From a virus: 33,253 nucleotides of DNA. The stretch is from the IMG/VR virus record IMGVR_UViG_3300010287_000002; one strand, written 5' to 3'. A program made the translations under genes and the position numbers. Under the pieces are notes generated by a model that was given only the letters and a program-made list of their open reading frames with translations, did no database searches and was not told where the DNA came from. This document shows positions 8,363 to 24,242 of the stretch, piece by piece; the first letter of the stretch is position 1; each line of letters opens with the position of its first letter.

Positions 8363-8772
8363 CGTGATCCTCCCAGCTCTTCGTTTTCCGGTCGGGATGA
8401 TACCGAGCCCTGTCCGTTCCTATTCCATTTCAGCATTTCGAAGAATGCTTCCGCATCCATGACGACTACTGGCGGTTTTCTTGATTGCTTGCATATCAGG
8501 AGCCAGTTTGTCCCGTCCTTTTTATTCACTTTGGCCTGATCTATCCATTCGGGAATGCTCCAGCGCTCCTGAAATTTGCATTCCACGCTAAAAGGAAACC
8601 GCGCAATCGCCTCGTCATCAAGTCGAACATCAACTCCCCGTTGACCCATGGGGCGGGATTCTATCGGCTTGTCACGTCCCCATTCCAGCCCGACCAGTTC
8701 CGCAATCTTAATGCACGCCCACTTCTGAAGGGCCCGGCCTTTTGCTTTTGCCGATTGCGGCTTCATCTTCAT
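8359..8772 (-). CDS. PD-(D/E)XK nuclease, Holliday-junction-resolvase-like
   Basis: GVDVRL...FSVECK gives a D...ExK motif. Size and position (end of the replication module) fit a resolvase. The start is uncertain: the ORF is open to a GTG at 8907, but that would overlap the upstream gene by 86 nt. Confidence 0.5.
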   Translation of the reverse strand: MKMKPQSAKAKGRALQKWACIKIAELVGLEWGRDKPIESRPMGQRGVDVRLDDEAIARFPFSVECKFQERWSIPEWIDQAKVNKKDGTNWLLICKQSRKPPVVVMDAEAFFEMLKWNRNGQGSVSSRPENEELGGSR

Positions 8773-13596: not shown

Positions 13597-13830
13597 CTAG
13601 CGTTGGCTTCCCCCCGTTTTGGGGGGAACTGTAGGGTTTATGAGTTCGTCAATCGTGCAATTAAAGACCTCCGCGAATTTTTCTAAATCCTGTAAACGCG
13701 GTTCCCTGCGGCCATTTTCAAAATTCCAAATAGTCGTTTCGGATAGCCCAACTTTTTCAGCTAAATCCTTTTGTGTCCATCCCATCTTTCCCCTGAAATA
13801 TCTCAAACGTATAATCGTAACCACCCCCAT
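13597..13830 (-). CDS. Cro-like XRE-family HTH regulator
   Basis: LRYFRGKMGWTQKDLAEKVGLSETTIWNFENGRREP is a classic XRE HTH. Divergent from the CI-like gene. Start set at MGVVTII; the longer ORF would run into the promoter region. Confidence 0.75.
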   Translation of the reverse strand: MGVVTIIRLRYFRGKMGWTQKDLAEKVGLSETTIWNFENGRREPRLQDLEKFAEVFNCTIDELINPTVPPKTGGSQR

Positions 13831-13836
13831 ATCATT

Positions 13837-13931
13837 ACATTTGTTATGTTTAATATCAGAATAACCACTATACCAACATTTGTCAAGAGAAAAACCCAAA
13901 ATAATGCAAATTGATCCAATCACACATTTGT
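13837..13931. promoter_or_regulatory. Three operator-like copies of ACATTTGT in the cI/cro intergenic region
   Basis: Copies at 13837..13844, 13876..13883 and 13924..13931. The third sits inside ATCACAcattTGTGAT, which has 6-bp inverted arms. The copies overlap the predicted promoters. Confidence 0.5.
13858..13886 (-). promoter_or_regulatory. PR-like early lytic promoter
   Basis: On the minus strand: TTGACA (13881..13886), 17 nt spacer, TATTCT (13858..13863), reading toward cro. Confidence 0.55.
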
Positions 13932-13939
13932 GATACTTT
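13911..13939 (+). promoter_or_regulatory. PRM-like repressor promoter (weak)
   Basis: TTGATC (13911..13916), then a GATACTTT -10 region after 15-17 nt. AAAGGAGA SD upstream of the ATG at 13959. Confidence 0.35.
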
Positions 13940-13958
13940 TTAAAAAAGGAGACATGAG

Positions 13959-14648
13959 ATGCATATAATAAGTGAGAGGCTTAGAGAGATAAGGAGAAAG
14001 CTAGGTATTACACAAGGAGAGCTGGCATCATTGGTTGGCGTCTCAGAAACTACCGTTTGGAACTGGGAAAACGGCAGGCGAGAACCGCGAAGCTCAGAGA
14101 TAAATAAACTCGCCAAAGTTTTGGGAGTCAGCGTCTCTTATCTTATGGGCGAAACGGACATGGACCATGAAAATGTTAAAAAAAATTCCTTCCAACATGT
14201 AATTGAAATACCCATCCTCGATCCCACGCTCATAGCCTGTGCAGGGAAGGGTAACCATATCGAAAGCGTATACGCAAAAGCAGAAAAAACGGTATTCCTG
14301 CCCGCATCAGACGTGGGCGTCATTTCTGTCGATGCCGACAAGAGACCTTTTGCCGTGGTCGTCGAAGGCGACTCGATGGAGGGTGCTGGCATTTCGGATA
14401 AAAGCACCGTCGTTGTAAATCCTGCCGAGGAGATCTACGACGGCGATACCGTCTTGGTTGCGTTCGGGATCATGCCGCAAATTGCGGTGAAATGGATTTT
14501 CTTCAAAAGGGACGGCGGCATAGAGTTGCGCTCCGCCAATCCGGCATATTCCCCGCTCATATTCTCGAAAGAAGACATAGAAAACGACATGATTAAAATC
14601 CTAGGAAAGGTGATGTACGTTATAAATAAGCCCAAGAGAGGAATATAA
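13959..14648 (+). CDS. CI-like repressor: XRE HTH fused to LexA/S24 autopeptidase domain
   Basis: N-terminal LGITQGELASLVGVSETTVWNWENGRREP. C-terminal VVEGDSMEGAGI (Ser nucleophile) and a downstream Lys (AVKW). Candidate Ala-Gly cleavage site in LIACAGKG. Confidence 0.9.
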   Translation: MHIISERLREIRRKLGITQGELASLVGVSETTVWNWENGRREPRSSEINKLAKVLGVSVSYLMGETDMDHENVKKNSFQHVIEIPILDPTLIACAGKGNHIESVYAKAEKTVFLPASDVGVISVDADKRPFAVVVEGDSMEGAGISDKSTVVVNPAEEIYDGDTVLVAFGIMPQIAVKWIFFKRDGGIELRSANPAYSPLIFSKEDIENDMIKILGKVMYVINKPKRGI

Positions 14649-14666
14649 AAGAGGGGGGTATAAACA

Positions 14667-15296
14667 ATGCCAGAAAATGGCGAGAATAAGAAAAAGGGAA
14701 AAGGAACTGGCATTGGATGCTTAATAATTCTAATAGTGCTGGTTGTAATCGGAATTATGTTATTTAAAGGTGACAGTAGCAATAAATCGTCATCTTCCTG
14801 GCCATCAGCAGAAGTAACAGAAAGAAATATTAGGGCTGCCCTATCACAGAAACCGTCTATAGATCCACTTTGGAAAGATGCAAATTTTGCAGAAAAGATT
14901 ACAAAGATAGAAGTTATCGATCATGCTGCTAAACCAGGGCAGAAGATTATTAACATATGGTACGAAACGGGAGATGCGTGGGACGAAACAGACTTGGTAA
15001 AGAAAGTGGGAGGCACAGCAATACTGATAAACAGCATGCTTTTCCAAAATGATAAAGTAGAATGGGTAACCGTATTTGCGCAAGCCCAAATGACAGACCA
15101 ATATGGTAATACCGAACTGGAACCTGTTATTAAAATTGGCATTACAAGGGAGATAGCAAATAAAGTTAATTGGAAGGGGTTGGCAGAAAAACATGCCGGT
15201 AGCGATCCAGGGAATATTTACAGGATAGCCGATAACTACAATATCCACTACGGGATATTAAAGCGTGTTAAACTTGATAAAATCCGTTTAAAGTAA
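14667..15296 (+). CDS. Single-pass membrane protein with extracytoplasmic domain, function unknown
   Basis: 209 aa. Lys-rich N-terminus, then TM GIGCLIILIVLVVIGIMLF. Starts 19 nt after the cI stop behind an AGAGGGGGG SD. Confidence 0.7.
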   Translation: MPENGENKKKGKGTGIGCLIILIVLVVIGIMLFKGDSSNKSSSSWPSAEVTERNIRAALSQKPSIDPLWKDANFAEKITKIEVIDHAAKPGQKIINIWYETGDAWDETDLVKKVGGTAILINSMLFQNDKVEWVTVFAQAQMTDQYGNTELEPVIKIGITREIANKVNWKGLAEKHAGSDPGNIYRIADNYNIHYGILKRVKLDKIRLK

Positions 15297-15475
15297 GTTG
15301 TCAAGCTAATAGGGGGGTTGCCATGAGATCGGCGAAGTTGCAAACAATTCCGGAACAAGCCATACCATGACCTCCTTTAAGCTTAGCGTTTACGATACCA
15401 ATTAAAAGTTGCTCGACATCATAACTAAGGGATAAATAAAAAGTGGTAATGCAATACAAAGTGAGGTGAGCAGCT

Positions 15476-16153
15476 GTGAAAAAGTGGGTTAAAAGGTTTG
15501 TCCCTATTGGTATTGTCATAGCTGTCATCGCATCGTTCGCCTTTGCTGGCATTGCCTCTCAGAAAGCCCCGTCTGTTCCAAGCACTGCGGAAAAAGCCCT
15601 TGTCGCACGCGTCATAGATGGCGACACCATACAGCTTGATGACGGCAGGAAAGTAAGGCTCATAGGAGTCGACACCCCCGAAACGGTCCACCCCCAAAAA
15701 GAAGTAGAATATTATGGCAAAGAGGCCTCGGACTTCACTAAATCCATGCTCGAGGGCAAGGAAGTTTATCTGGAATACGATATCCAGCCCACTGATAAGT
15801 ACGGTCGCACACTGGCCTATATTTGGCTTTCGGACGGTACTCTTTTCAATGAATTGCTTGTGTTAAAGGGATTTGCACAGGTCTCCACTTATCCTCCCAA
15901 TGTGAAATATGTAGAGCGGTTCACAACAGCACAAAAGAAAGCCATAGAGGCCAATGCTGGGCTGTGGGCTAAGGAAAGCATGGAAAAACCTCAGCCGCAA
16001 GCAAAAGAAATCATCGTCTATATTACAAAAACTGGCAGTAAATATCACAGGGCAGGATGTAAATATTTGAAGAAATCTTGCATACCCATATCTCTGGAAG
16101 ATGCTAAGGCTATGGGTTATACGCCGTGCAGTGTTTGCAATCCTCCACAATAA
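15476..16153 (+). CDS. Membrane-anchored/secreted thermonuclease (SNase family) with C-terminal Cys/His motif
   Basis: GTG start 8 nt after GAGGTGA. N-terminal hydrophobic segment. VIDGDTIQL..VRLIGVDTPE...YGKEA...DKYGRTLAYIW is the staphylococcal-nuclease core. C-terminal GSKYHRAGCKYL...YTPCSVCNP. Confidence 0.85.
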   Translation: MKKWVKRFVPIGIVIAVIASFAFAGIASQKAPSVPSTAEKALVARVIDGDTIQLDDGRKVRLIGVDTPETVHPQKEVEYYGKEASDFTKSMLEGKEVYLEYDIQPTDKYGRTLAYIWLSDGTLFNELLVLKGFAQVSTYPPNVKYVERFTTAQKKAIEANAGLWAKESMEKPQPQAKEIIVYITKTGSKYHRAGCKYLKKSCIPISLEDAKAMGYTPCSVCNPPQ

Positions 16154-16273
16154 GAAAAACAATAGATTAGAAAGGATTTATGAAAGAAGTGTCTTTTTTG
16201 TTGCTTGTTTTAGAGGAGTGATCACTGTGAGTTTGCTAAATGAATACATTAAATAATAAAGGAAGGTAAAAGC

Positions 16274-17053
16274 ATGAAGAAGACGATTTTAATTCTAATA
16301 GCTTTCTTGGTCGTGCTGTCAATGTTGCCTGCAACCTCTTTTGCCGGCTCATCCACACCACTTCAGGTCGAGATTAATTCTATTGACTGTAAGGCAATTA
16401 AGGATAAGTTAGTGGGAATAATGATTAGGAATGGGTATAGAATTTCCAAAGATACTGAATACCAATTATGTTTCGACAAAGAAAGCGATAATATTGTATT
16501 TAATGTGTTTTATGCCAACCCTAACACATTACAAAATCCTGCTTTAAGATTACAATTCGACATTGCCCCAGAATCAGATAAAACTCTCGTTGTCGCCACA
16601 GCCTTTATTGTAACGCATTCCTTCATCGGTGAGGAAGTGCCACAAAATATAACTGGTACTATGTCCAAAGATAATTATATCGCTGTGAAGGATATCCTTT
16701 TTAAAGTGAAAAGTGCTGTAGATGGCACTCCATATGAAGAGCTTGTGGAAGAATTCAAACCTGTTATGGCAAAAGATAGTATTGCCGAGAAGCCAAAAGT
16801 TGCAAAATCTGGAATTGTATCAATTGACAAAGATGGTCATATCGTCGAGATCGAAGACGAAAGTATCGCCAAGGCTGCTGGATTACAGGAAGGGGATATA
16901 ATACTTGAAGTTAATTTAAGTCCTTTCGATCCAAACAAAGTGGATTGCTTAGCTGAGATAGACAATAAATTAAATTCCAGCACTTCGGTTGCAATCACAT
17001 TCCAGAGAGGGGGAAAGAAAGATATCGCAATCCTGAAAAAAGGAGGTATCTGA
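16274..17053 (+). CDS. Secreted protein with C-terminal PDZ-like domain
   Basis: Signal peptide MKKTILILIAFLVVLSMLPATSFA. C-terminal IAKAAGLQEGDIILEVN...VAITFQRGGK is PDZ-like. Confidence 0.65.
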   Translation: MKKTILILIAFLVVLSMLPATSFAGSSTPLQVEINSIDCKAIKDKLVGIMIRNGYRISKDTEYQLCFDKESDNIVFNVFYANPNTLQNPALRLQFDIAPESDKTLVVATAFIVTHSFIGEEVPQNITGTMSKDNYIAVKDILFKVKSAVDGTPYEELVEEFKPVMAKDSIAEKPKVAKSGIVSIDKDGHIVEIEDESIAKAAGLQEGDIILEVNLSPFDPNKVDCLAEIDNKLNSSTSVAITFQRGGKKDIAILKKGGI

Positions 17054-17054
17054 G

Positions 17055-17558
17055 GTGCCCAAATTTCGGTGCCCAAACTGCGGCGAAGAGGTATCCACTT
17101 TTGTGCGGATGTGCCCCGGATGTGGGCGCGAATTCGACAGACACGAGATAAAGGAGCTTATGGCCAAGCAAGGAAAGCCAAACAACAAGGCGCAATACAG
17201 CGGATATGTAGCATTGGCGTTTGTCGGAATCATACTGTATTTGGTATTCGCCCAATTTTTTGGAAACGACTCCTCAAGTTCGAAAAGGCCCAAAGAAGAC
17301 GTCAGTGATGCACTTACCGCATTCGTAATGTCCCAAGAATTCGTTGAGGAAAAGTTGGTAGCACCCAGAACGGCCAAATTTCCGCATTTCGATCCGTCCA
17401 TGGCAACCCAAGTCGACAAGAACACCTGGATCATAAACTCATATGTGGACAGTCAGAACAGATTCGGGGCCTTGGTTAGAACGAAGTATCGCGCAAAGAT
17501 GCAATACATCGGCAACAATCAATGGGAAATTTTGGATCTCAATTTTTCAGATTGGTAA
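17055..17558 (+). CDS. Zinc-ribbon membrane protein with extracytoplasmic domain
   Basis: GTG start 2 nt after the upstream stop, behind a GGAGG. CPNCGEEV...CPGCG ribbon, TM YVALAFVGIILYLVFAQFF, and an about 90-aa ectodomain with SYVDSQNRFGALVRTKY. Confidence 0.65.
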   Translation: MPKFRCPNCGEEVSTFVRMCPGCGREFDRHEIKELMAKQGKPNNKAQYSGYVALAFVGIILYLVFAQFFGNDSSSSKRPKEDVSDALTAFVMSQEFVEEKLVAPRTAKFPHFDPSMATQVDKNTWIINSYVDSQNRFGALVRTKYRAKMQYIGNNQWEILDLNFSDW

Positions 17559-17637
17559 TTATTGTATTAGCAAAAAGCAAGTGAGTAACTGTGAAAAGGC
17601 GGATTAGAAAGTTTATCCCTATAGACAATGACAAAAA

Positions 17638-17676
17638 GCCTGGTGGATTTAATCTCCAGGCCTTAATTTTGTTTTG
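17638..17676 (+). terminator. Intrinsic terminator closing the lysogeny-side cassette
   Basis: GCCTGG-tggatttaatct-CCAGGC followed by cttaATTTTGTTTTG. Confidence 0.5.
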
Positions 17677-17703
17677 TATAATCTTGTTCAGTCGTTTCGT
17701 TTA

Positions 17704-17727
17704 TGGTGGACTGGATGATGGAACTAA
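17704..17727. repeat. TGGTGGACTGGA plus degenerate adjacent copy (candidate integrase arm-type site, left)
   Basis: An exact 12-mer at 17704..17715, followed by TGATGGAACTAA (7/12 match). Confidence 0.6.
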
Positions 17728-17777
17728 TTTTTTACCCTTTCGAAAACCCTTGTTATATTTAATAACTTTTAAAAAAA

Positions 17778-17793
17778 TGGTGGAGGCGGGGTC
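17778..17793. other. TGGTGGAGGCGGGGTC: candidate attP core or a fourth TGGTGGA site
   Basis: Shares TGGTGGA with the arm repeats. Its reverse complement, GACCCCGCCTCCACCA, looks like the last 16 nt of a tRNA/tmRNA (T-stem end, acceptor strand, ACCA). Confidence 0.3.
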
Positions 17794-17922
17794 TACCATA
17801 GTCACGTCTCTTGTTGTATCATCTAGTTTTACAATGCATGAAGAATGCGGTGTTTTCAGGCCTTCAAGTATTCCACACATTATTATCCTGTATTATTTTT
17901 GATTATTCAATTATAATGTTTT

Positions 17923-17946
17923 TGGTGGACTGGATGGTGGACTGGA
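17923..17946. repeat. Perfect tandem TGGTGGACTGGA x2 (candidate integrase arm-type sites, right)
   Basis: 17923..17934 and 17935..17946, 40 nt upstream of the int ATG and just downstream of a perfect TATAAT (17912..17917). Confidence 0.6.
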
Positions 17947-17985
17947 TTTTAGCTTGAATTGGCCGTATGTAATAGGAGGATTGAA

Positions 17986-19212
17986 ATGCCTAAAAAAGCA
18001 CCGGAAATGTCGGCTCTTCAGGTCAGAAAGATCACGGAAAAGGGGAAATACGCCGTTGGAGGCGTGACAGGCCTAATGCTTTTCGTGCGAGAAACGGGCA
18101 CCAAGTCATGGGTGTTGCGCATGAATATCGGCGGCCGTCGGCGTGAGATAGGCCTAGGTGGGTATCCCGATGTATCACTTACGATGGCGCGAGAAAAGGC
18201 TCGCGGAATACGAGAAATGGCCAGTAATGGGATCGATCCCATTGCCGAAAGAGAGAAGCGAAGACGTGAGTTGTCTGCTAAGCGCTCTATCACTTTTGAA
18301 GAAGCCGCGAGGTTGTGCCACGAGAAGAAAATTGTCGAATTTAGAAACAAGAAGCATGCACAAGACTGGATATCGTCGGTAGAGCGATATGCCTTCCCCG
18401 AAATCGGCAAAATGTCAGTTTCAGATGTCGATCTCAAAGACATCTTGACCATACTCGAACCAATTTGGACAACTAAGACCGAAACGGCTACAAGGCTCAG
18501 ACAACGCATTGAATACATACTTAATTGGGCAACTGTGAGCGGATATCGGGAAGGGGTAAACCCAGCACGCTGGAAAGGCCATCTTGATGCAATTCTGCCC
18601 AAGCCTTCGAAGCTGAAGAAGGTTGAGCACTTCAAAGCCCTGTCATGGAAAGACCTACCTACATTCATGGAGCGATTGCGGAAGCGTCAGGGCATAGCAG
18701 CACGTGCACTGGAATTTTTGATCCTCACTGCCACCCGTTCCGGAGAGGTACGCTTTGCGACATGGAACGAGATCAACTTCAATGATCGCATCTGGGTTAT
18801 ACCGGCAACGCGCACGAAAACGGCGAGAGAGCATGTGGTACCTCTATCAAGCTATGCTATTGAGGTACTGACTTCAGTCCGAGATGCCGGCGATTTGCCG
18901 TTCATCTTTACAGCTACCTCCGGCAGGCCCCTGTCTGACATGAGCATGGCAGCGGTATGTAAGCGCATGAAGACGGACGTGGTCCCCCACGGATTTCGTT
19001 CGACGTTCAGGGATTGGTGTGCCGAATCAACGAACTTCCCACGCGAGGTTGCGGAAATGGCGCTTTCCCACTCCATTGGTAACAGCGTGGAGGCCGCATA
19101 TCGTCGTGGAGACCTGTTGGAGAAGCGCCGCCGCTTGATGGACGCATGGGCGGACTACTGCAGACACACAAAGATGAATAACAATGTAGTGCCGATAGGC
19201 AAAGCCCTGTAA
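17986..19212 (+). CDS. int: Tyrosine integrase, P4/CP4-57 type (DUF4102 arm-binding N-domain)
   Basis: GKYAVGGVTGLMLFVRETGTKSWVLRMNIGGRRREIGLGGYPDVSLTMAREKA is the DUF4102 arm-binding domain. Catalytic residues in TATRSGEV, HGFRSTFRDW and the C-terminal HS...AYRRGD. Start set at the ATG behind TAGGAGG. Confidence 0.9.
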   Translation: MPKKAPEMSALQVRKITEKGKYAVGGVTGLMLFVRETGTKSWVLRMNIGGRRREIGLGGYPDVSLTMAREKARGIREMASNGIDPIAEREKRRRELSAKRSITFEEAARLCHEKKIVEFRNKKHAQDWISSVERYAFPEIGKMSVSDVDLKDILTILEPIWTTKTETATRLRQRIEYILNWATVSGYREGVNPARWKGHLDAILPKPSKLKKVEHFKALSWKDLPTFMERLRKRQGIAARALEFLILTATRSGEVRFATWNEINFNDRIWVIPATRTKTAREHVVPLSSYAIEVLTSVRDAGDLPFIFTATSGRPLSDMSMAAVCKRMKTDVVPHGFRSTFRDWCAESTNFPREVAEMALSHSIGNSVEAAYRRGDLLEKRRRLMDAWADYCRHTKMNNNVVPIGKAL

Positions 19213-19234
19213 AAGCGCATGGTTATGGGAATTA

Positions 19235-19275
19235 CATGGGCCTCCAGGATGGCCTAGGAGGCTCATGTTTCTTTA
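19235..19275 (+). terminator. Intrinsic terminator after int
   Basis: CATGGGCCTCC ... GGAGGCTCATG: an 11-bp stem with one G-U pair, followed by TTTCTTTAT. Confidence 0.55.
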
Positions 19276-19335
19276 TAAAGAATATTTCTATTGTCAGGGT
19301 CTTTTTTGATCTGTCCTAGAGGCTTCTGAATGGCA

Positions 19336-19460: not shown

Positions 19461-19922
19461 TTAATCAGCAATCAATACACCAAAACCGAGGCCAATGATG
19501 GCCCAAATGACACTGCCGTCTCTACGTCCCTTTTTATATGCCTGTTTTGTTGCTACATTCACCTCCTCCTCAAGCTGCTGCAAGGTTTTTGCCATCTCTC
19601 CCTCAGTCCATAATTTCATTTCCGCTAGCTGCTCCTCTAATGAAGATATTTGCCCACGTATCGCTTGCAGTTCTTGATGCTCTGCCATGGCCCCGGTCAT
19701 TACTGTTCGTCCCCAGTCCCATGGGGCAGCCAAAAGCGGTTGCTCCACCACATAACCCGGCTCCAGGCGTTTCCAATATTTAGTCCACTGACTGAGCTCG
19801 TTCGACCATGCGATCTGAATAAGCGTTGAGCTCGTCAAGAAAAGCATCATCACCAATAATGAGAGTCTTTTTAACGTATTCATCACCCTTTTTTTTCGCC
19901 TCCACAGGAATTGCCTTAACAT
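19461..19922 (-). CDS. Signal/TM plus coiled-coil plus C-terminal TM protein (lysis accessory?)
   Basis: N-terminal KRLSLLVMMLFLTSSTLIQIAW, coiled-coil ELQAIRGQISSLEEQLAEMK, C-terminal VIWAIIGLGFGVLIAD. No cysteine. Start uncertain (19922, 19883 or 19700). Confidence 0.45.
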   Translation of the reverse strand: MLRQFLWRRKKRVMNTLKRLSLLVMMLFLTSSTLIQIAWSNELSQWTKYWKRLEPGYVVEQPLLAAPWDWGRTVMTGAMAEHQELQAIRGQISSLEEQLAEMKLWTEGEMAKTLQQLEEEVNVATKQAYKKGRRDGSVIWAIIGLGFGVLIAD

Positions 19923-20115
19923 CAGTTTCTATCTTCTCGATCCTTTTCGTCGCTTCCTTTTGTGTTTGCTCAAGTTTCTGTCCTATTTGCATATCCGTCG
20001 TAATGCGGTTTCTACATGAGATCCACAGGCCGCATAAAATTACTATGATCAAGATAACCCAGATAAGCGCCGATTTACGAAATTTATTCGCTATCTTTGG
20101 TTCTTCCGATTTCAT
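19780..20115 (-). CDS. N-terminal TM plus coiled-coil protein (i-spanin-like topology)
   Basis: 111 aa. ALIWVILIIVILCGLWISC, then a charged helical region QKLEQTQKEATKRIEKIETDVK. Confidence 0.5.
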   Translation of the reverse strand: MKSEEPKIANKFRKSALIWVILIIVILCGLWISCRNRITTDMQIGQKLEQTQKEATKRIEKIETDVKAIPVEAKKKGDEYVKKTLIIGDDAFLDELNAYSDRMVERAQSVD

Positions 20116-20356
20116 GTTTCATCGCTTCCTTTCCGACATTCACTCTATGCTCGTATGCGCTCTTAGCAAAATATCCCAGCACGATGCTGGACCCAAGCCA
20201 TTTAACAAGATCAGCGGCATTGTCCGAAAGCTTACACTGAGAAACAAGATCAATCACAATGAGCATGCAAACAAATACCGTAAAACACAGGACAATTAAT
20301 TTGGTTAACGGCAAGTTCCGTATTCTGTCCGACATGCTCGCTTTCAATTTGACCAC
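20084..20356 (-). CDS. Putative holin (two TM segments, charged C-terminus)
   Basis: LIVLCFTVFVCMLIVIDLV and LVKWLGSSIVLGYFAKSAY, tail KEAMKHEIGRTKDSE. Located in the lysis cassette. Confidence 0.55.
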   Translation of the reverse strand: MVKLKASMSDRIRNLPLTKLIVLCFTVFVCMLIVIDLVSQCKLSDNAADLVKWLGSSIVLGYFAKSAYEHRVNVGKEAMKHEIGRTKDSE

Positions 20357-20739
20357 ACCTTCAGCAACACACTTACGATGCTCGCCACGGCTCCGCCTAT
20401 TCCTCCTGCAGCAAGTACAATCTTTATTAGGATCTTCGTGCTGGCGCTTGTCTGTGCGCCTTCAACGCCAATGCCCCACAGGCGCTCGGGTACGCCATTG
20501 AACCTGCCCTTTATTTCCCTTACGTCCCCCTCTATGGCTCCTATGCGCCGCGAGTGGTCGTCCAGGACCCGTTCGTGCTTGAGGCAAAGCTCCTTCCGCT
20601 CACCAAGCTGTATTTCCATCGTCGTCAGCCTGTCATAGACTCTTCCGATCGCTTTCTGATTTTCGTCAATGTATTTCTCTACCGTCTCTTTGAGGTCCGA
20701 TATGGCATCCCACAAATACTCCATTTCACCCTGCGTCAA
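20344..20739 (-). CDS. XhlA-like coiled-coil protein with C-terminal TM anchor
   Basis: 131 aa. Long helical N-part, C-terminal ILIKIVLAAGGIGGAVASIVSVLLKVW. ATGA-coupled to the amidase gene. Confidence 0.45.
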   Translation of the reverse strand: MTQGEMEYLWDAISDLKETVEKYIDENQKAIGRVYDRLTTMEIQLGERKELCLKHERVLDDHSRRIGAIEGDVREIKGRFNGVPERLWGIGVEGAQTSASTKILIKIVLAAGGIGGAVASIVSVLLKVWSN

Positions 20740-21958: not shown

Positions 21959-24242
21959 TTAATACACCTCCATTGTTTGTATCAATGTTTACGACTAACG
22001 GGTGCCCTTCCCCTACGGCATCAGATAGCTGGCAAATTTTAATTTGATTCATATTTATACCCTCATCAACAGTTATTTCTGGCGTTGTTGTGGTATATTG
22101 TTTTATTAATTCATCCCCTAAGTAAAGTTTTATGTTGTATCGTTCATACGCTTCGCCTAAGGGGATGTCAGGGGCGTTCGAGGTAAGCTCAAGTCCTACT
22201 CTGCTCCTTCTAGTCCACGTATATTTCCGATTGCCGTGATGAATGCAATGAACAGGAGAAAACGGCCGTTTCGTCTCGCCGTTGTATGCAAATGCTACGG
22301 GATCTATAAACTCCTGGTTCATGTCGTTCGCCACAAACTTATAGTAGTTTTGCTTGTTGATACCATATATGTCACCCGTTATGAATATAAGTCGCCCCGC
22401 CATAAGTACTCCTACCTTCTCGTTTGCTTGGTGTTTCTTTATGGCCCATTCAGTACCCCTTCTACCCCTCAACAGCTTAGTGAGTCTATAGGTGTCCTGC
22501 GCAATGAGCTCTGCATTGCAAAACTGTATTATTTCGTTGCCAACGACGACTGCATTTGCCCCCCAAAGCACGTCGCTTTCATCGGCACTCCACAACTCAA
22601 CTCCTTTTATGTAAACGTCAATGTGGTTGTCCATATCCCATATCTGTGACGGGCCATAACCTATTGTGTTCAAAGCTGATCCGACGCCGCGTGCCGATAT
22701 CTTGCCGACCATCGAATAGCTTTCACCACCATTGGTGCTTTCATACAAGACTGCAAAACGCCATGCGTTGCTTTCCCCATTGGCCAACGCATAAAACCCT
22801 ATTTCGTCGGGTACTCCAGGTAATAAAGGCAAGTTAGTCAACAGACCAATGGTCTGCCCACCTATGTCAATTTGATCATATATATCTCCACTACCACTAT
22901 CCCCCTCCTCCTCGATGCCAAATATCGTGCTATCGTATGTTCTGGCAAGCACTTCGATTGAATAGTCCGCACCTATTGTCATTTCCTTTATCTGGACTAT
23001 GTGTTGGTCTCCGTTTAGGGTGGTGATGTTAAGCACGTCCCCTGGCACTAGATGGAGCCATTTTGGCCCAAGTTTGAAGTGGTACTCACAAGCTTCGTTC
23101 CACATAGACGTTAATACTTTGTACGCAGCTGTTCTGGCAACGTTGGCATCAGTTGCAATAGAGGTCTGCAATGAAAGCCTGTTTTCATCTTGGCCAGATG
23201 ACTTTGTTGCACTTTGTAGTGAAGTTAAATAGTCCTTGTTAATATCAAAATATTCCACTTCTACGACGGTAGGCAATTGGTTCTTGTTGGACGTGATAAT
23301 CTTCACCGTCTCGTTTTCCCCTTCACCAGCCCCTATGTCCTGCCTTGGTATAACTATGATACTTTTCTGTTCCCGTGGGAAAAAGACGAGCTTCCTCCCA
23401 TATTGCCTCCACGATATGTCCGCGATCCTGCATATCGACGATATATCGTCCATGAAGCTGTTGCCCGAGGCGCAAAAACCGCCTATAGTGCCAAACACGT
23501 CTGTAACGTCAAAGTCTTCCTCTGAATATCCAGCGTCTAGGCATAGATCGGCGATAATATCACTTACGTTCACTGGCAATGGTGTGTACCCAGCCCCGCT
23601 GTCCTGCCCCTTTTGGATTACTTCAAAGTTAAAGCTAGGAATCCTATTGCCCCACTTCTCAAGGTTGAGATCCTGAAAGACGATATACGAAACGCCACGG
23701 TATGCTGGAGAATTACCTTCACGTCCAACTATGATTGAATTTGGTCTTTGTGTCTCAGTGCCAAAATATGAGGTCATTTGCCTTGAAAGTTCGTTGCTCG
23801 CCAATATGGTAGAGTCGTTTGCACTTGGACTTACGTGGTAAATGAGTTTGTTGTCTGCCCATATCTTGCGGACTGCCAATATAGGCCCTCTACATATAGC
23901 TACTGCGAAAGAGCAAGTATACCAATATTCGGTATAGCTCATCGTAACCTTGCTTTTCCCGCTTCCGCTCGTTTGCGATGTAGTCTTTTGATGCTCCTTG
24001 AGGTCGTCTGCCCATATTATGTTCCCAGGTAAGCGATAAGCACCCCAAACCCTCGGGATAACGTTGCCATAGCTACTTCCAGATACTCTGACGTCCTGCG
24101 CCCGTGGCCCGTACGTGTTTGTGCTTATGTCTTGACTTAACCACGCCTGATCTATGTAGTAGCCAGCTAAAGATGCAAGCCCTAGCCATACTGGAGCAGA
24201 GGTCATGGATCCGACTATAAGCGGTAACAGTATCGTTGCCAT
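21939..24242 (-). CDS. Host-specificity / baseplate multidomain protein (RcGTA g15-like)
   Basis: 767 aa. MATILLPLIVG...YIDQ...GPRAQDVRVSGSSYGNVIPRVWGAYRLPGNIIWA...YWYTCSFAVAICRGPI...APAYRGVSYIVFQDLNLEKWGNRIPSFNFEV matches my memory of the GTA g15 N-terminus. Confidence 0.7.
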   Translation of the reverse strand: MATILLPLIVGSMTSAPVWLGLASLAGYYIDQAWLSQDISTNTYGPRAQDVRVSGSSYGNVIPRVWGAYRLPGNIIWADDLKEHQKTTSQTSGSGKSKVTMSYTEYWYTCSFAVAICRGPILAVRKIWADNKLIYHVSPSANDSTILASNELSRQMTSYFGTETQRPNSIIVGREGNSPAYRGVSYIVFQDLNLEKWGNRIPSFNFEVIQKGQDSGAGYTPLPVNVSDIIADLCLDAGYSEEDFDVTDVFGTIGGFCASGNSFMDDISSICRIADISWRQYGRKLVFFPREQKSIIVIPRQDIGAGEGENETVKIITSNKNQLPTVVEVEYFDINKDYLTSLQSATKSSGQDENRLSLQTSIATDANVARTAAYKVLTSMWNEACEYHFKLGPKWLHLVPGDVLNITTLNGDQHIVQIKEMTIGADYSIEVLARTYDSTIFGIEEEGDSGSGDIYDQIDIGGQTIGLLTNLPLLPGVPDEIGFYALANGESNAWRFAVLYESTNGGESYSMVGKISARGVGSALNTIGYGPSQIWDMDNHIDVYIKGVELWSADESDVLWGANAVVVGNEIIQFCNAELIAQDTYRLTKLLRGRRGTEWAIKKHQANEKVGVLMAGRLIFITGDIYGINKQNYYKFVANDMNQEFIDPVAFAYNGETKRPFSPVHCIHHGNRKYTWTRRSRVGLELTSNAPDIPLGEAYERYNIKLYLGDELIKQYTTTTPEITVDEGINMNQIKICQLSDAVGEGHPLVVNIDTNNGGVLSEEFDI

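What the first reader, a model, noticed from the sequence alone, without database searches (positions are those of the whole stretch)
14667..17558. Four-gene envelope-targeted cassette between repressor and integrase: candidate undescribed superinfection-exclusion, defence or lysogenic-conversion module
All four plus-strand genes downstream of the CI-like repressor encode proteins with an N-terminal TM segment or signal peptide. They are a 209-aa TM protein, a TM-anchored thermonuclease, a secreted PDZ protein and a zinc-ribbon TM protein.

The first gene starts 19 nt after the cI stop behind a strong SD, so it should be expressed in the lysogen. The block ends at a terminator (17638..17676) just before attP and int. 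It looks clearly more AT-rich than the head, tape measure and replication genes, which suggests separate acquisition.

The repressor-to-integrase gap is the classical location of prophage Sie, Abi and other defence genes. Apart from the SNase and PDZ domains I recognise no described system with this composition.
Basis: partly seen in the sequence, partly recalled or inferred. Interest (0 to 1): 0.75.

Follow-up and report, generated by a model that had tools for sequence, protein, structure and literature searches.

The report
Prophage cargo bay of envelope genes
The four genes are real and all encode cell-envelope proteins, but they are separately acquired "add-on" genes in a temperate phage of the anaerobe Acetomicrobium, not one defence system, and only the first is consistently linked to the phage repressor.

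Summary
Four plus-strand ORFs (14667-15296, 15476-16153, 16274-17053, 17055-17558) lie between a CI/S24 repressor and attP/integrase. Each has one N-proximal hydrophobic segment. The block has 41.5% GC against 50.3% for the rest of the phage.

The "cassette" reading does not hold, because related Acetomicrobium prophages reshuffle the genes:
- cI→g1→other cargo;
- cI→g1 allele B→g2;
- a different cI→another membrane protein→g2;
- cI→g3→g4 with neither g1 nor g2;
- g3 alone.

Two decayed genes lie inside the block.

The parts are:
- g1 belongs to an unannotated family (685 clusters) found only in lysogeny modules, so it is the best superinfection-exclusion candidate.
- g2 is a secreted staphylococcal-type nuclease with an intact active site, a recurrent lysogeny-module cargo.
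- g3-g4 are a translationally coupled pair.
- g4's outer domain is a common phage add-on, often sited beside the tape-measure gene.

No known defence system matches. The phage integrates into the tmRNA gene.

Side finding: one host carries an intact g1 copy between two repeats of its CRISPR array.

Verdict: an ordinary kind of locus carrying uncharacterised families. All functions are inferred.

The parts
13959..14648 (+). CI-like repressor (HTH_3 plus Peptidase_S24), the first gene of the plus-strand lysogeny block
   Evidence: Pfam HTH_3 8e-16 and Peptidase_S24 9e-18; phrog_4 transcriptional repressor 2e-41. It is 98% identical in the integrated Acetomicrobium prophage L019.
14667..15296 (+). 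g1: 209-aa membrane-anchored protein (N-in, TM 15-33) with an outward-facing alpha/beta domain of about 160 aa. The family is unannotated and specific to lysogeny modules.
   Evidence: No Pfam, NCBIfam or PADLOC hit; phrog_8263 (unknown function) 9e-7. Profile search finds 685 representative clusters. AF2 core pLDDT is above 90, with no PDB fold match. It sits next to a repressor and/or integrase in all 13 loci examined. Some members are lipoproteins.
15328..15423 (+). Remnant of a fifth gene: 96 nt, 92% identical to the inside of a 112-aa ORF that follows g1 in Acetomicrobium sp. S15 prophages. It lies in the 179-nt g1-g2 spacer.
   Evidence: blastn window 15328-15423 against L012 1782-1877; gene list of L012.
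15476..16153 (+). g2: secreted or periplasmic staphylococcal-type (SNase) nuclease with a signal peptide (AFA|G). It also has a C-terminal Cys/His mini-domain of about 50 aa (H-x3-C-x6-C...C-x2-C).
   Evidence: PF00565 8e-28; NucI model 1e-47, but 161 bits against a cut-off of 250. Alignment to S. aureus nuclease keeps D21, R35, D40, T41, E43 and R87. The module 15427-16161 is 88% identical in DNA in two other phage backgrounds.
16274..17053 (+). g3: secreted 259-aa protein (signal peptide SFA|G) with an unknown N-terminal domain and a weak C-terminal PDZ-like domain (about 185-250).
   Evidence: Sub-threshold PDZ hits. PDB profile hits are to DegQ/DegP PDZ domains only, E 0.005-0.2. Only 4 homologues are known. 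The AF2 model is poor, pLDDT 54.
17055..17558 (+). g4: 167-aa protein with a cytoplasmic zinc ribbon, TM 52-70 and an outward-facing domain of about 85 aa (motifs SPxTAKFP and YVDSQNxFGAxxR). It is probably translationally coupled to g3.
   Evidence: (phrog_13160 6e-18). The family occurs in 276 IMG/VR loci. The domain is absent from Pfam and from PDB by sequence.
17591..17625 (+). A 35-nt remnant (MKRRIRKFIPI...) of a second SNase gene. The relative L019 keeps an internally deleted 80-aa version at this place. The 103-aa ORF 17591-17902 is therefore spurious.
17638..17676 (+). Intrinsic terminator closing the plus-strand cargo block: hairpin 17638-17661 plus a U tract.
   Evidence: Fold dG -17 kcal/mol, z -2.85. 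The stem is kept with compensatory changes in L019. No comparable hairpin occurs in the two internal spacers.
17778..17791 (.). attP core TGGTGGAGGCGGGG, identical to the 3' end of the host tmRNA (ssrA) gene. Arm-type repeats GGTGGACTGGATG lie at 17705-17717 and 17924-17936.
17959..19212 (+). Tyrosine integrase. The likely start is the ATG at 17986, as called in L001 (408 aa).
   Evidence: Arm-DNA-bind_3, Phage_int_M and Phage_integrase; gene call in L001.

Best explanation
**What it is.** This is the accessory ("moron", lysogenic-conversion) bay of a temperate siphophage of Acetomicrobium (Synergistota, a diderm). It lies between the repressor gene and attP. After integration into the tmRNA gene it forms the right end of the prophage.

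**Expression (inferred).** The bay is probably read through from the cI promoter as far as the terminator at 17638-17676. That would make it expressed in lysogens.

**Composition (shown).** It is not one system. It is a recombination-prone mosaic of at least three independent units, all exported to the envelope.

- **g1** is genetically coupled to repressors. It sits on the outer face of the cytoplasmic membrane. Its most likely role (inferred) is superinfection exclusion that blocks DNA entry, in the manner of Ltp, Sie2009 or HK97 gp15.
- **g2** is an active-site-intact, Ca2+-type staphylococcal nuclease delivered to the periplasm or medium. Its most likely role (inferred) is to degrade extracellular or incoming DNA. 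That would serve nucleotide scavenging or eDNA turnover, and might also act as a barrier to foreign DNA.
- **g3-g4** are a translationally coupled pair. g4 is a membrane protein whose outer domain is a widespread phage add-on. g3 is a periplasmic PDZ-like partner. A second envelope-level exclusion or remodelling function is likely but not specified.

**How sure.** The stated confidence (0.7) is for the architecture: a mosaic cargo bay of independent envelope-directed units rather than one system. The specific functions are less certain: about 0.4 for g1 as an exclusion protein, and about 0.8 for g2 as an active exported nuclease.
For: **Layout.** Only cI, g1-g4 and int are on the plus strand; all lytic genes are on the minus strand. 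The cI-g1 gap is 18 nt with a Shine-Dalgarno sequence. No terminator-like hairpin occurs in the internal gaps, and a conserved one follows g4.

**Mosaicism in relatives.**
- L011-13: a different cI (33-36% identical), then the g1 ectodomain at 94% DNA identity, then other cargo including HicB, then int.
- L026/27/30/31: cI at 85-94%, then g1 allele B (50%), then g2 at 90-92%.
- L028/29: cI at 33%, then a different membrane protein, then g2 at 92%.
- L019/20: cI at 98%, then g3 (68%), then g4 (90%), then a deleted SNase, then attR/tmRNA.
- g3 occurs alone beside a recombinase.
- Gene remnants lie at 15328-15423 and 17591-17625.
- GC is heterogeneous between the genes.

**g1.** In all 13 loci examined it is next to a repressor and/or an integrase. 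This holds across three module types (S24-cI with Tyr-int; ImmR/ImmA with Ser-int) in both Synergistota and Bacillota. Topology and lipoprotein variants are shown.

**g2.** Catalytic residues are conserved. Of 19 viral loci with SNase-plus-Cys-domain homologues, 15 have an integrase and/or repressor close by.

**g4.** Of the best 80 viral loci, 24 lie within 300 nt of a tape-measure gene and 29 have an integrase or repressor within 4 kb. Cultured examples are phiCT453B (just before the tape-measure gene) and Leeuwenhoekiella phage Arctus_1 (after an S24 repressor).

**Precedents.**
- HK97 gene 15 lies between the tail chaperone and the tape-measure gene and blocks genome entry (PMC3594210).
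- Ltp is a lipoprotein encoded in the lysogeny module. It is transcribed in the prophage and blocks DNA injection (PMC3952083).

**Host.** The flank proteins of L019 cluster with Acetomicrobium SmpB and AFOR.
Against: - No expression data exist and no phenotype has been measured.
- g1, g3 and g4 have no homology to any characterised exclusion or defence protein. All PHROG hits are 'unknown function', and PADLOC finds nothing.
- The g1 fold has no PDB neighbour, so its assigned function rests on position and topology only.
- Absence of intrinsic terminators in the gaps does not prove read-through. Promoter scans are uninformative for this phylum.
- A secreted nuclease could serve purposes unrelated to phage or DNA exclusion.
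- Because all four products go to the envelope, co-operation among them in this particular phage cannot be excluded.
Confidence: 0.7

Rival explanations
1. The four genes form one co-functioning, previously undescribed envelope-level defence or exclusion system.
For: They are adjacent and on the same strand, with no internal terminators. All four products are exported. g3 and g4 are coupled. The arrangement is 100% conserved across about 19 metagenome contigs.
Against: Those contigs are the same phage, identical in DNA. In every diverged relative the set is broken up: g1 without g2-g4, g2 without g3-g4, g3-g4 without g1-g2, and g3 alone. Decayed genes lie between the members. No g3 homologue neighbours any of 80 g4-family loci. 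PADLOC finds no system.
Confidence: 0.06
2. The block is pure lysogenic conversion with no anti-phage role. The nuclease feeds the host on environmental DNA or remodels biofilm eDNA. g1, g3 and g4 alter envelope physiology, for example stress tolerance or adhesion.
For: g2 is a complete secreted nuclease that recurs in the lysogeny modules of many phages. The hosts live in DNA-rich anaerobic digesters; this rests on the sample sources and on my own knowledge. g4-family and g1-family proteins also occur in chromosomes without obvious prophage context, for example Polaribacter. g1 domains are fused to Ig-like, SH3 or TPR modules elsewhere.
Against: g1 is strictly tied to repressors and integrases. 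g4-family genes sit beside tape-measure genes. Both are the classic positions of proteins that block DNA entry (PMC3594210, PMC3952083). A host has kept an intact g1 copy without the phage, which fits a protective role.
Confidence: 0.25
3. The genes serve the lytic cycle, for example host-DNA degradation or lysis accessories.
For: Phages often encode nucleases. A lysis cluster of membrane proteins lies just beyond int, at 19461-20739.
Against: The genes are oriented with cI and int and against every lytic gene. Signal peptides send the nuclease out of the cytoplasm. Presence and absence vary among close relatives. Homologues elsewhere lie in lysogeny modules.
Confidence: 0.04

Closest known systems
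Ltp of Streptococcus thermophilus phage TP-J34, and Sie2009 of lactococcal P335 phages (superinfection-exclusion proteins encoded in the lysogeny module)
   Same: They are encoded in the lysogeny module next to the repressor and integrase, and are expressed from the prophage. They are tethered to the outer face of the cytoplasmic membrane by a lipid or TM anchor (PMC3952083). g1 shares the position and topology, and some g1-family members are lipoproteins.
   Different: There is no detectable sequence or fold relationship. The host here is a diderm Synergistota. The function of g1 is untested.
HK97 gp15 moron (YebO-like inner-membrane exclusion protein)
   Same: It is a small membrane protein encoded by an add-on gene between the tail chaperone and the tape-measure gene, and it blocks genome entry (PMC3594210). 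g4-family genes occupy that same slot in about 30% of the viral loci examined.
   Different: It belongs to a different protein family. In this window g4 lies after cI, not beside the tape measure, and it is paired with a PDZ-like protein.
Staphylococcal nuclease family (Nuc/NucI), and prophage-borne secreted DNases such as S. pyogenes Spd1
   Same: g2 has the full SNase domain with its catalytic residues and a signal peptide. Secreted DNases carried by prophages are an established kind of lysogenic conversion (PMC3258162).
   Different: g2 scores below the NucI equivalog cut-off. It carries an extra C-terminal Cys/His mini-domain. Spd1 has a different fold (beta-beta-alpha-metal). The host is a non-pathogenic thermophilic anaerobe.
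Lambda rexAB, and cargo downstream of cI in general
   Same: These are accessory genes co-transcribed with the repressor in the lysogen. This comparison rests on my own knowledge.
   Different: The proteins are unrelated. Here the cargo is exported rather than cytoplasmic or integral to the membrane.

Membership tests
Single multi-gene anti-phage defence system | The components co-occur as a conserved set across unrelated genomes | tested here: not met
   g1, g2 and g3(-g4) occur apart in every diverged relative. None of 80 g4-family loci has a g1, g2 or g3 neighbour.
Single multi-gene anti-phage defence system | The components match models of a described system | tested here: not met
   PADLOC gives only g2 against PDLC01096 'SNc+LTD', over the SNase part alone (profile 33-180 of 279). 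g1, g3 and g4 have no hit. DefenseFinder was not available.
Phage moron / lysogenic-conversion cargo | Presence/absence polymorphism between otherwise similar phages, with sharp homology breaks | tested here: met
   Junctions lie at 14650, about 14799, 15328, 15423-15427, 16161 and 16314. L019 keeps cI at 95% DNA identity but lacks g1 and g2.
Phage moron / lysogenic-conversion cargo | Base composition differs from the neighbouring phage genes | tested here: met
   GC is 0.415 against 0.503; g1 is 0.386 and g3 is 0.379.
Phage moron / lysogenic-conversion cargo | Expressed from the repressed prophage (own promoter or read-through, plus a terminator) | not testable with these tools
   Only indirect evidence exists: the 18-nt cI-g1 gap, the strand shared with cI, and the terminator at 17638-17676. 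The promoter scan shows no enrichment.
Superinfection-exclusion proteins of the Ltp/Sie2009/gp15 kind (a functional class) | Membrane- or lipid-anchored and facing outwards | tested here: met
   g1 has TM 15-33 with a K-rich N-terminus, and relatives have lipoboxes (ITGC, MAGC). g4 has TM 52-70 after a cytoplasmic zinc ribbon.
Superinfection-exclusion proteins of the Ltp/Sie2009/gp15 kind (a functional class) | Encoded at a lysogeny-module or tail-operon add-on site | tested here: met
   g1: 13 of 13 loci. g4 family: 24 of 80 loci beside a tape-measure gene and 29 of 80 near an integrase or repressor.
Superinfection-exclusion proteins of the Ltp/Sie2009/gp15 kind (a functional class) | Blocks adsorption or DNA entry of a superinfecting phage | not testable with these tools
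   This needs an experiment.
Superinfection-exclusion proteins of the Ltp/Sie2009/gp15 kind (a functional class) | Homology to a characterised exclusion protein | tested here: not met
   No annotated PHROG, Pfam or NCBIfam hit for g1, g3 or g4 beyond the zinc ribbon and PDZ. No PDB match by sequence or fold.
Staphylococcal nuclease (SNase, PF00565) | Full-length domain match above the curated threshold | tested here: met
   97.4 bits against a cut-off of 21; residues 59-165 cover profile positions 1-106 of 107.
Staphylococcal nuclease (SNase, PF00565) | Ca2+-binding and catalytic residues (D21, D40, T41, R35, E43, R87 in S. aureus numbering) | tested here: met
   The alignment to 4odg/1ey0 keeps DGDT, R-L, VDTPE and YGR-LAY. 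Residue numbering is from my own knowledge.
Thermonuclease NucI (NCBIfam equivalog NF047694) | Score above the equivalog cut-off | tested here: not met
   161.5 bits against a cut-off of 250.
PDZ domain (g3 C-terminus) | Pfam match above the gathering score | tested here: inconclusive
   PDZ_6 24.0 against 27, and PDZ 23.0 against 23.2. Consistent weak hits to DegP/DegQ/RseP/GspC PDZ domains. The AF2 model is too poor to confirm the fold.

The most novel reading that the evidence does not exclude
g1 may found a new and fairly large family (about 700 clusters) of repressor-linked, outward-facing membrane proteins. On this reading they act as superinfection-exclusion factors in temperate phages of thermophilic anaerobes (Synergistota and Bacillota). 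The family would be valuable enough that one host has fixed an intact copy, without the phage, between two repeats of its CRISPR array. The g4 ectodomain family would be a second widespread exclusion module that acts on tape-measure-mediated DNA entry.
Probability: 0.3. Interest if true: 0.6.

Novelty: new member of a known kind. Interest (0 to 1): 0.4.

Why it matters
Temperate phages of Synergistota are almost unstudied. This locus gives a clean, comparative example of how their lysogeny module collects envelope-directed cargo.

It also singles out two unannotated protein families as concrete candidates for new exclusion mechanisms. One is g1, which is always beside repressors or integrases. 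The other is the g4 ectodomain, which often lies beside tape-measure genes.

A secreted nuclease that recurs as prophage cargo in anaerobic digesters could affect eDNA turnover and gene transfer there.

None of this overturns current ideas. It extends the moron and superinfection-exclusion picture to a new phylum and to new families.

Tried and rejected
- **DNA similarity.** blastn of 13900-19300 against 50,697 GenBank phages gave no match.
- **Exact-protein look-up for g1.** It returned only identical copies of the same phage. The minus-strand 'genes' called after g1 in short contigs were the spurious antisense ORF 15301-15552, not alternative contexts.
- **Sequence search of PDB.** Profiles for g1 and g4 gave nothing useful. 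g4 hit only generic zinc ribbons.
- **Foldseek for g1.**
  - Against PDB the best hit was E 5e-3 with TM 0.27, so no fold assignment.
  - Against BFVD it hit only an uncharacterised Siphoviridae protein (E 9e-8, TM 0.5) and a 'lipoprotein' (E 9e-3).
- **g3 structure.** With only 4 sequences the model was poor (pLDDT 54.5), and Foldseek on it was meaningless (best E 0.13).
- **GspC-like reading of g3.** I considered an HR domain plus PDZ that would target a secretin. Support is limited to weak PDZ-level hits (E 0.004-0.04), so I dropped it.
- **PDZ binding of the g4 C-terminus.** I considered that the g3 PDZ binds the aromatic C-terminus of g4 (...FSDW). No tool was available to test this.
- **Rfam.** The whole window gave no hits, and no tRNA or tmRNA gene was found in it.
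- **Promoter scan.** It showed no enrichment over shuffles.
- **Literature.** A search for the PADLOC label 'SNc+LTD' returned only unrelated papers. No paper on Acetomicrobium prophage biology was found.


Full report
**1. What is in the sequence**

The window is a complete temperate siphophage genome of about 33 kb. Every lytic gene lies on the minus strand: terminase, portal, head, tape measure, lysis and replication. One plus-strand block, 13959-19212, holds a CI-like repressor, four ORFs and a tyrosine integrase.

- g1, 14667-15296, 209 aa;
- g2, 15476-16153, 225 aa;
- g3, 16274-17053, 259 aa;
- g4, 17055-17558, 167 aa.

The g1 ATG lies 18 nt after the cI stop, behind GAGGGGGG. The g4 GTG lies 1 nt after the g3 stop, behind AGGAGG.

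Each protein has a single strong hydrophobic segment:
- g1 has a K-rich N-terminus and TM 15-33, which indicates an N-in signal anchor.
- g2 (AFA|G) and g3 (SFA|G) have classic cleavable signal peptides.
- g4 has a CxxC...CxxC zinc ribbon followed by TM 52-70.

Elsewhere in the window, only the lysis cluster (19461-20739) and the tape measure have comparable segments. Four such genes in a row is therefore not a chance pattern.

The block has 41.5% GC against 50.3% for the rest of the phage. It is internally uneven: g1 38.6, g2 46.2, g3 37.9 and g4 46.8%.

A hairpin at 17638-17661 with a U tract closes the block (z -2.85). It is conserved through compensatory changes in a relative. Neither internal spacer folds better than shuffled sequence. 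Read-through from cI to that terminator is therefore plausible, but it is not shown.

**2. Host and integration site**

A contig from another metagenome (L019) carries a prophage end with a 98% identical cI. Beyond the phage sequence it continues directly into a tmRNA gene, smpB and tRNA-Pro. Its flanking proteins fall in 90% clusters with Acetomicrobium mobile, A. flavidum, A. hydrogeniformans and A. thermoterrenum.

Window and L019 are collinear up to TGGTGGAGGCGGGG (window 17778-17791). After that point the window continues as phage and L019 continues as tmRNA. This sequence is therefore the attP core, at the 3' end of ssrA. Arm-type repeats GGTGGACTGGATG lie at 17705 and 17924.

In the integrated state the order is int ... 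lytic genes ... cro, cI, g1-g4, terminator, attR, tmRNA. The cargo block is thus the right end of the prophage and converges on ssrA.

**3. Is it a cassette?**

No. The 19 contigs that carry the identical g1 are the same phage, base for base, so they say nothing about linkage. Diverged relatives do.

- **(a) Acetomicrobium sp. S15 and a MAG (L011-13).** A different S24 repressor (33-36% identical) is followed by a g1 whose ectodomain DNA is 94% identical to the window's. Quite different cargo follows: ORFs of 112 aa and 105 aa, HicB and a 154-aa ORF. An integrase comes last.
- **(b) L026/27/30/31.** cro-cI at 85-94% is followed by a 50%-identical g1 allele, then g2 at 90-92%, then unrelated genes.
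- **(c) L028/29.** A 33%-identical cI is followed by a 238-aa protein with a g1-like anchor but a different ectodomain. g2 at 92% comes next, then further genes, then int.
- **(d) L019/20.** cI at 98% is followed directly by g3 (68%) and g4 (90%), with no g1 and no intact g2.
- **(e) A 57%-identical g3 stands alone.** It lies beside an XerC-like recombinase and has no g4.

DNA comparison places the homology breaks at 14650, about 14799, 15328, 15423-15427, 16161 and 16314.

The spacers are scars:
- 15328-15423 is a 92%-identical remnant of the 112-aa gene of the S15 prophage.
- 17591-17625 is the first 35 nt of a second SNase gene. L019 still carries it as an internally deleted 80-aa ORF.

The locus is therefore a recombination-prone cargo bay with at least three independently assorting units: g1, g2, and g3 with or without g4.

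**4. The individual genes**

*g1.*
- There is no Pfam, NCBIfam or PADLOC hit. Its PHROG (8263) has no known function.
- A profile search of 1.84 billion representatives finds 685 clusters, 199 of them at E<=1e-10. Most are 190-290 aa with the domain at the C-terminus.
- Some members carry N-terminal zinc ribbons, TPR, Ig-like or SH3 modules. Several have lipoboxes.
- The AF2 model is confident in the core (pLDDT above 90) and shows a two-layer alpha/beta domain. It has no PDB neighbour: best E 5e-3, TM 0.27. Only uncharacterised viral proteins match in BFVD.
- The informative feature is position. In all 13 loci examined it lies immediately downstream of a repressor and/or immediately upstream of an integrase. 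This holds across S24-cI with a tyrosine integrase and ImmR/ImmA with a serine integrase. The hosts include Acetomicrobium, Neomoorella stamsii, and Clostridiales, Syntrophomonadaceae and Bacillota MAGs.

That position and topology are the hallmark of lysogeny-module exclusion proteins such as Ltp. Ltp is a lipoprotein, is transcribed in the prophage and blocks DNA injection (PMC3952083). I rate an exclusion role for g1 at about 0.4. It is inferred, not shown.

*g2.*
- It has a full SNase domain (PF00565, 8e-28).
- Alignment to S. aureus nuclease keeps DGDT, R35, VDTPE and YGR-LAY. The enzyme should therefore be active.
- It scores below the NucI equivalog cut-off.
- It carries an extra C-terminal Cys/His mini-domain with only weak matches to Ada_Zn_binding and DUF6233.
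- The PADLOC hit (PDLC01096, 'SNc+LTD', 1e-40) covers only the SNase part and is not a system call.
- Of 19 IMG/VR loci with SNase-plus-Cys-domain relatives, 15 have an integrase and/or repressor nearby.
- The window lineage has gained and lost SNase copies at two positions.

It is thus a recurrent, selected prophage cargo. The most economical role is degradation of extracellular or periplasmic DNA. That would serve nutrient scavenging or eDNA turnover, and possibly a barrier to incoming DNA.

*g3-g4.*
- g3 has only four homologues. Its PDZ hits are weak but consistent: DegP/DegQ, RseP and GspC PDZ domains. Its N-terminal domain is unknown, and the AF2 model was too poor to use.
- The g4 ectodomain (SPxTAKFP ... 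YVDSQNxFGAxxR) is absent from Pfam and PDB. It is common in phages, with 276 IMG/VR loci.
- Among the best 80 of those loci, 24 lie within 300 nt of a Pfam-confirmed tape-measure gene. 29 have an integrase or repressor within 4 kb. None has a g3, g1 or g2 neighbour.
- In cultured phages it sits just before the tape-measure gene in Clostridium phage phiCT453B. It sits inside the tail-tip genes of a Yersinia phage. It sits after an S24 repressor in Leeuwenhoekiella phage Arctus_1.

The slot between tail chaperone and tape measure is exactly where the first-named moron lies. That moron, HK97 gene 15, encodes an inner-membrane protein that blocks genome entry (PMC3594210). g4 is unrelated to gp15 in sequence, so the parallel is positional only.

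**5. Comparison with known systems**

The locus works like a classic moron or lysogenic-conversion region. It is not a member of any described defence system. The defining test for a system, conserved co-occurrence, was run and failed.

g2 is a bona fide SNase-family member. g1 and g4 belong to uncharacterised families that behave, by genomic position and topology, like exclusion proteins. g3 is a lineage-restricted PDZ-like partner of g4.

**6. Verdict**

This is an ordinary kind of locus in an under-studied phage-host system, and it contains two protein families worth experimental follow-up. I score interest at 0.4 and novelty as a new member of a known kind.

The most novel reading not excluded is that g1, and perhaps g4, define new widespread exclusion families (probability about 0.3).

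**7. Side observation**

A host contig recovered from four samples (L015-L018) carries a CRISPR array of 105 repeats. Its spacers match this phage at 8538-8571, 13706-13734, 15047-15082 (inside g1), 18475-18494 and 18646-18680.

Between the penultimate repeat and the terminal, one-mismatch repeat lies an 809-nt phage fragment. It holds the last 64 nt of cI, an intact g1 (ectodomain 94% identical to allele B) and a terminator.

A double crossover between spacers and protospacers would produce this structure. That idea is my inference, by analogy with reported spacer-mediated recombination, which I recall from memory. A host that retains g1 without the phage fits a protective function.

Noticed in passing
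L015:6924-7732 (also L016, L017, L018): An 809-nt phage fragment sits between the penultimate repeat and the terminal (1-mismatch) repeat of a 105-repeat host CRISPR array. It holds the 3' end of cI, an intact g1 homologue (P0011) and a terminator. It is identical in assemblies from four samples and is followed by host PadR/ABC genes.
   Followed up: partly
window 8538-8571, 13706-13734, 15047-15082, 18475-18494, 18646-18680: These protospacers are matched (29-36 nt, 92-97%) by spacers of the L015 CRISPR array (repeat GTTTGTAGTCTACCTATGAGGGATTGAAAC). One lies inside g1, one in cro and two in int.
   Followed up: partly
window 17778-17791 (core); 17705-17717 and 17924-17936 (arm repeats): The attP core TGGTGGAGGCGGGG equals the 3' end of the Acetomicrobium tmRNA gene, so the phage integrates into ssrA next to smpB. 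A different prophage in Acetomicrobium sp. S15 (L012) also sits at ssrA/smpB.
   Followed up: yes
window 17591-17625 and ORF 17591-17902: A 35-nt remnant of a second SNase gene remains here. The 103-aa ORF that gene callers report runs across the terminator and attP and is spurious.
   Followed up: yes
window 15328-15423: The g1-g2 spacer contains a 96-nt remnant of a 112-aa gene that is intact in Acetomicrobium sp. S15 prophages.
   Followed up: yes
L058-L137 (IMG/VR); phiCT453B 23782-24141 (L139): Genes for the g4-type ectodomain lie immediately beside tape-measure genes in about 30% of viral loci, sometimes in inverted orientation between chaperone and tape measure. This is the same slot as the HK97 gene 15 moron.
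   Followed up: partly
L029:5258-5974: A 238-aa protein downstream of a different cI has an N-terminal anchor very like that of g1 (K-rich, GCL...MLFGGSS) but an unrelated ectodomain. This suggests ectodomain swapping on a common anchor.
   Followed up: no
L011:7438-10349: The related Acetomicrobium prophage carries what looks like a diversity-generating retroelement: reverse transcriptase RVT_1, bAvd and an FGE-sulfatase/C-type-lectin-like target gene.
   Followed up: no
window 19461-20739 (minus strand): A cluster of four small membrane proteins lies just beyond the integrase. It is presumably the lysis cassette (holin/spanin-like). A strong hairpin at about 19235-19270 follows int (z -4.0).
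   Followed up: no
window 16154-16273: The g2-g3 spacer has only 29% GC. No homologue was found in any relative, and its origin is unexplained.
   Followed up: no
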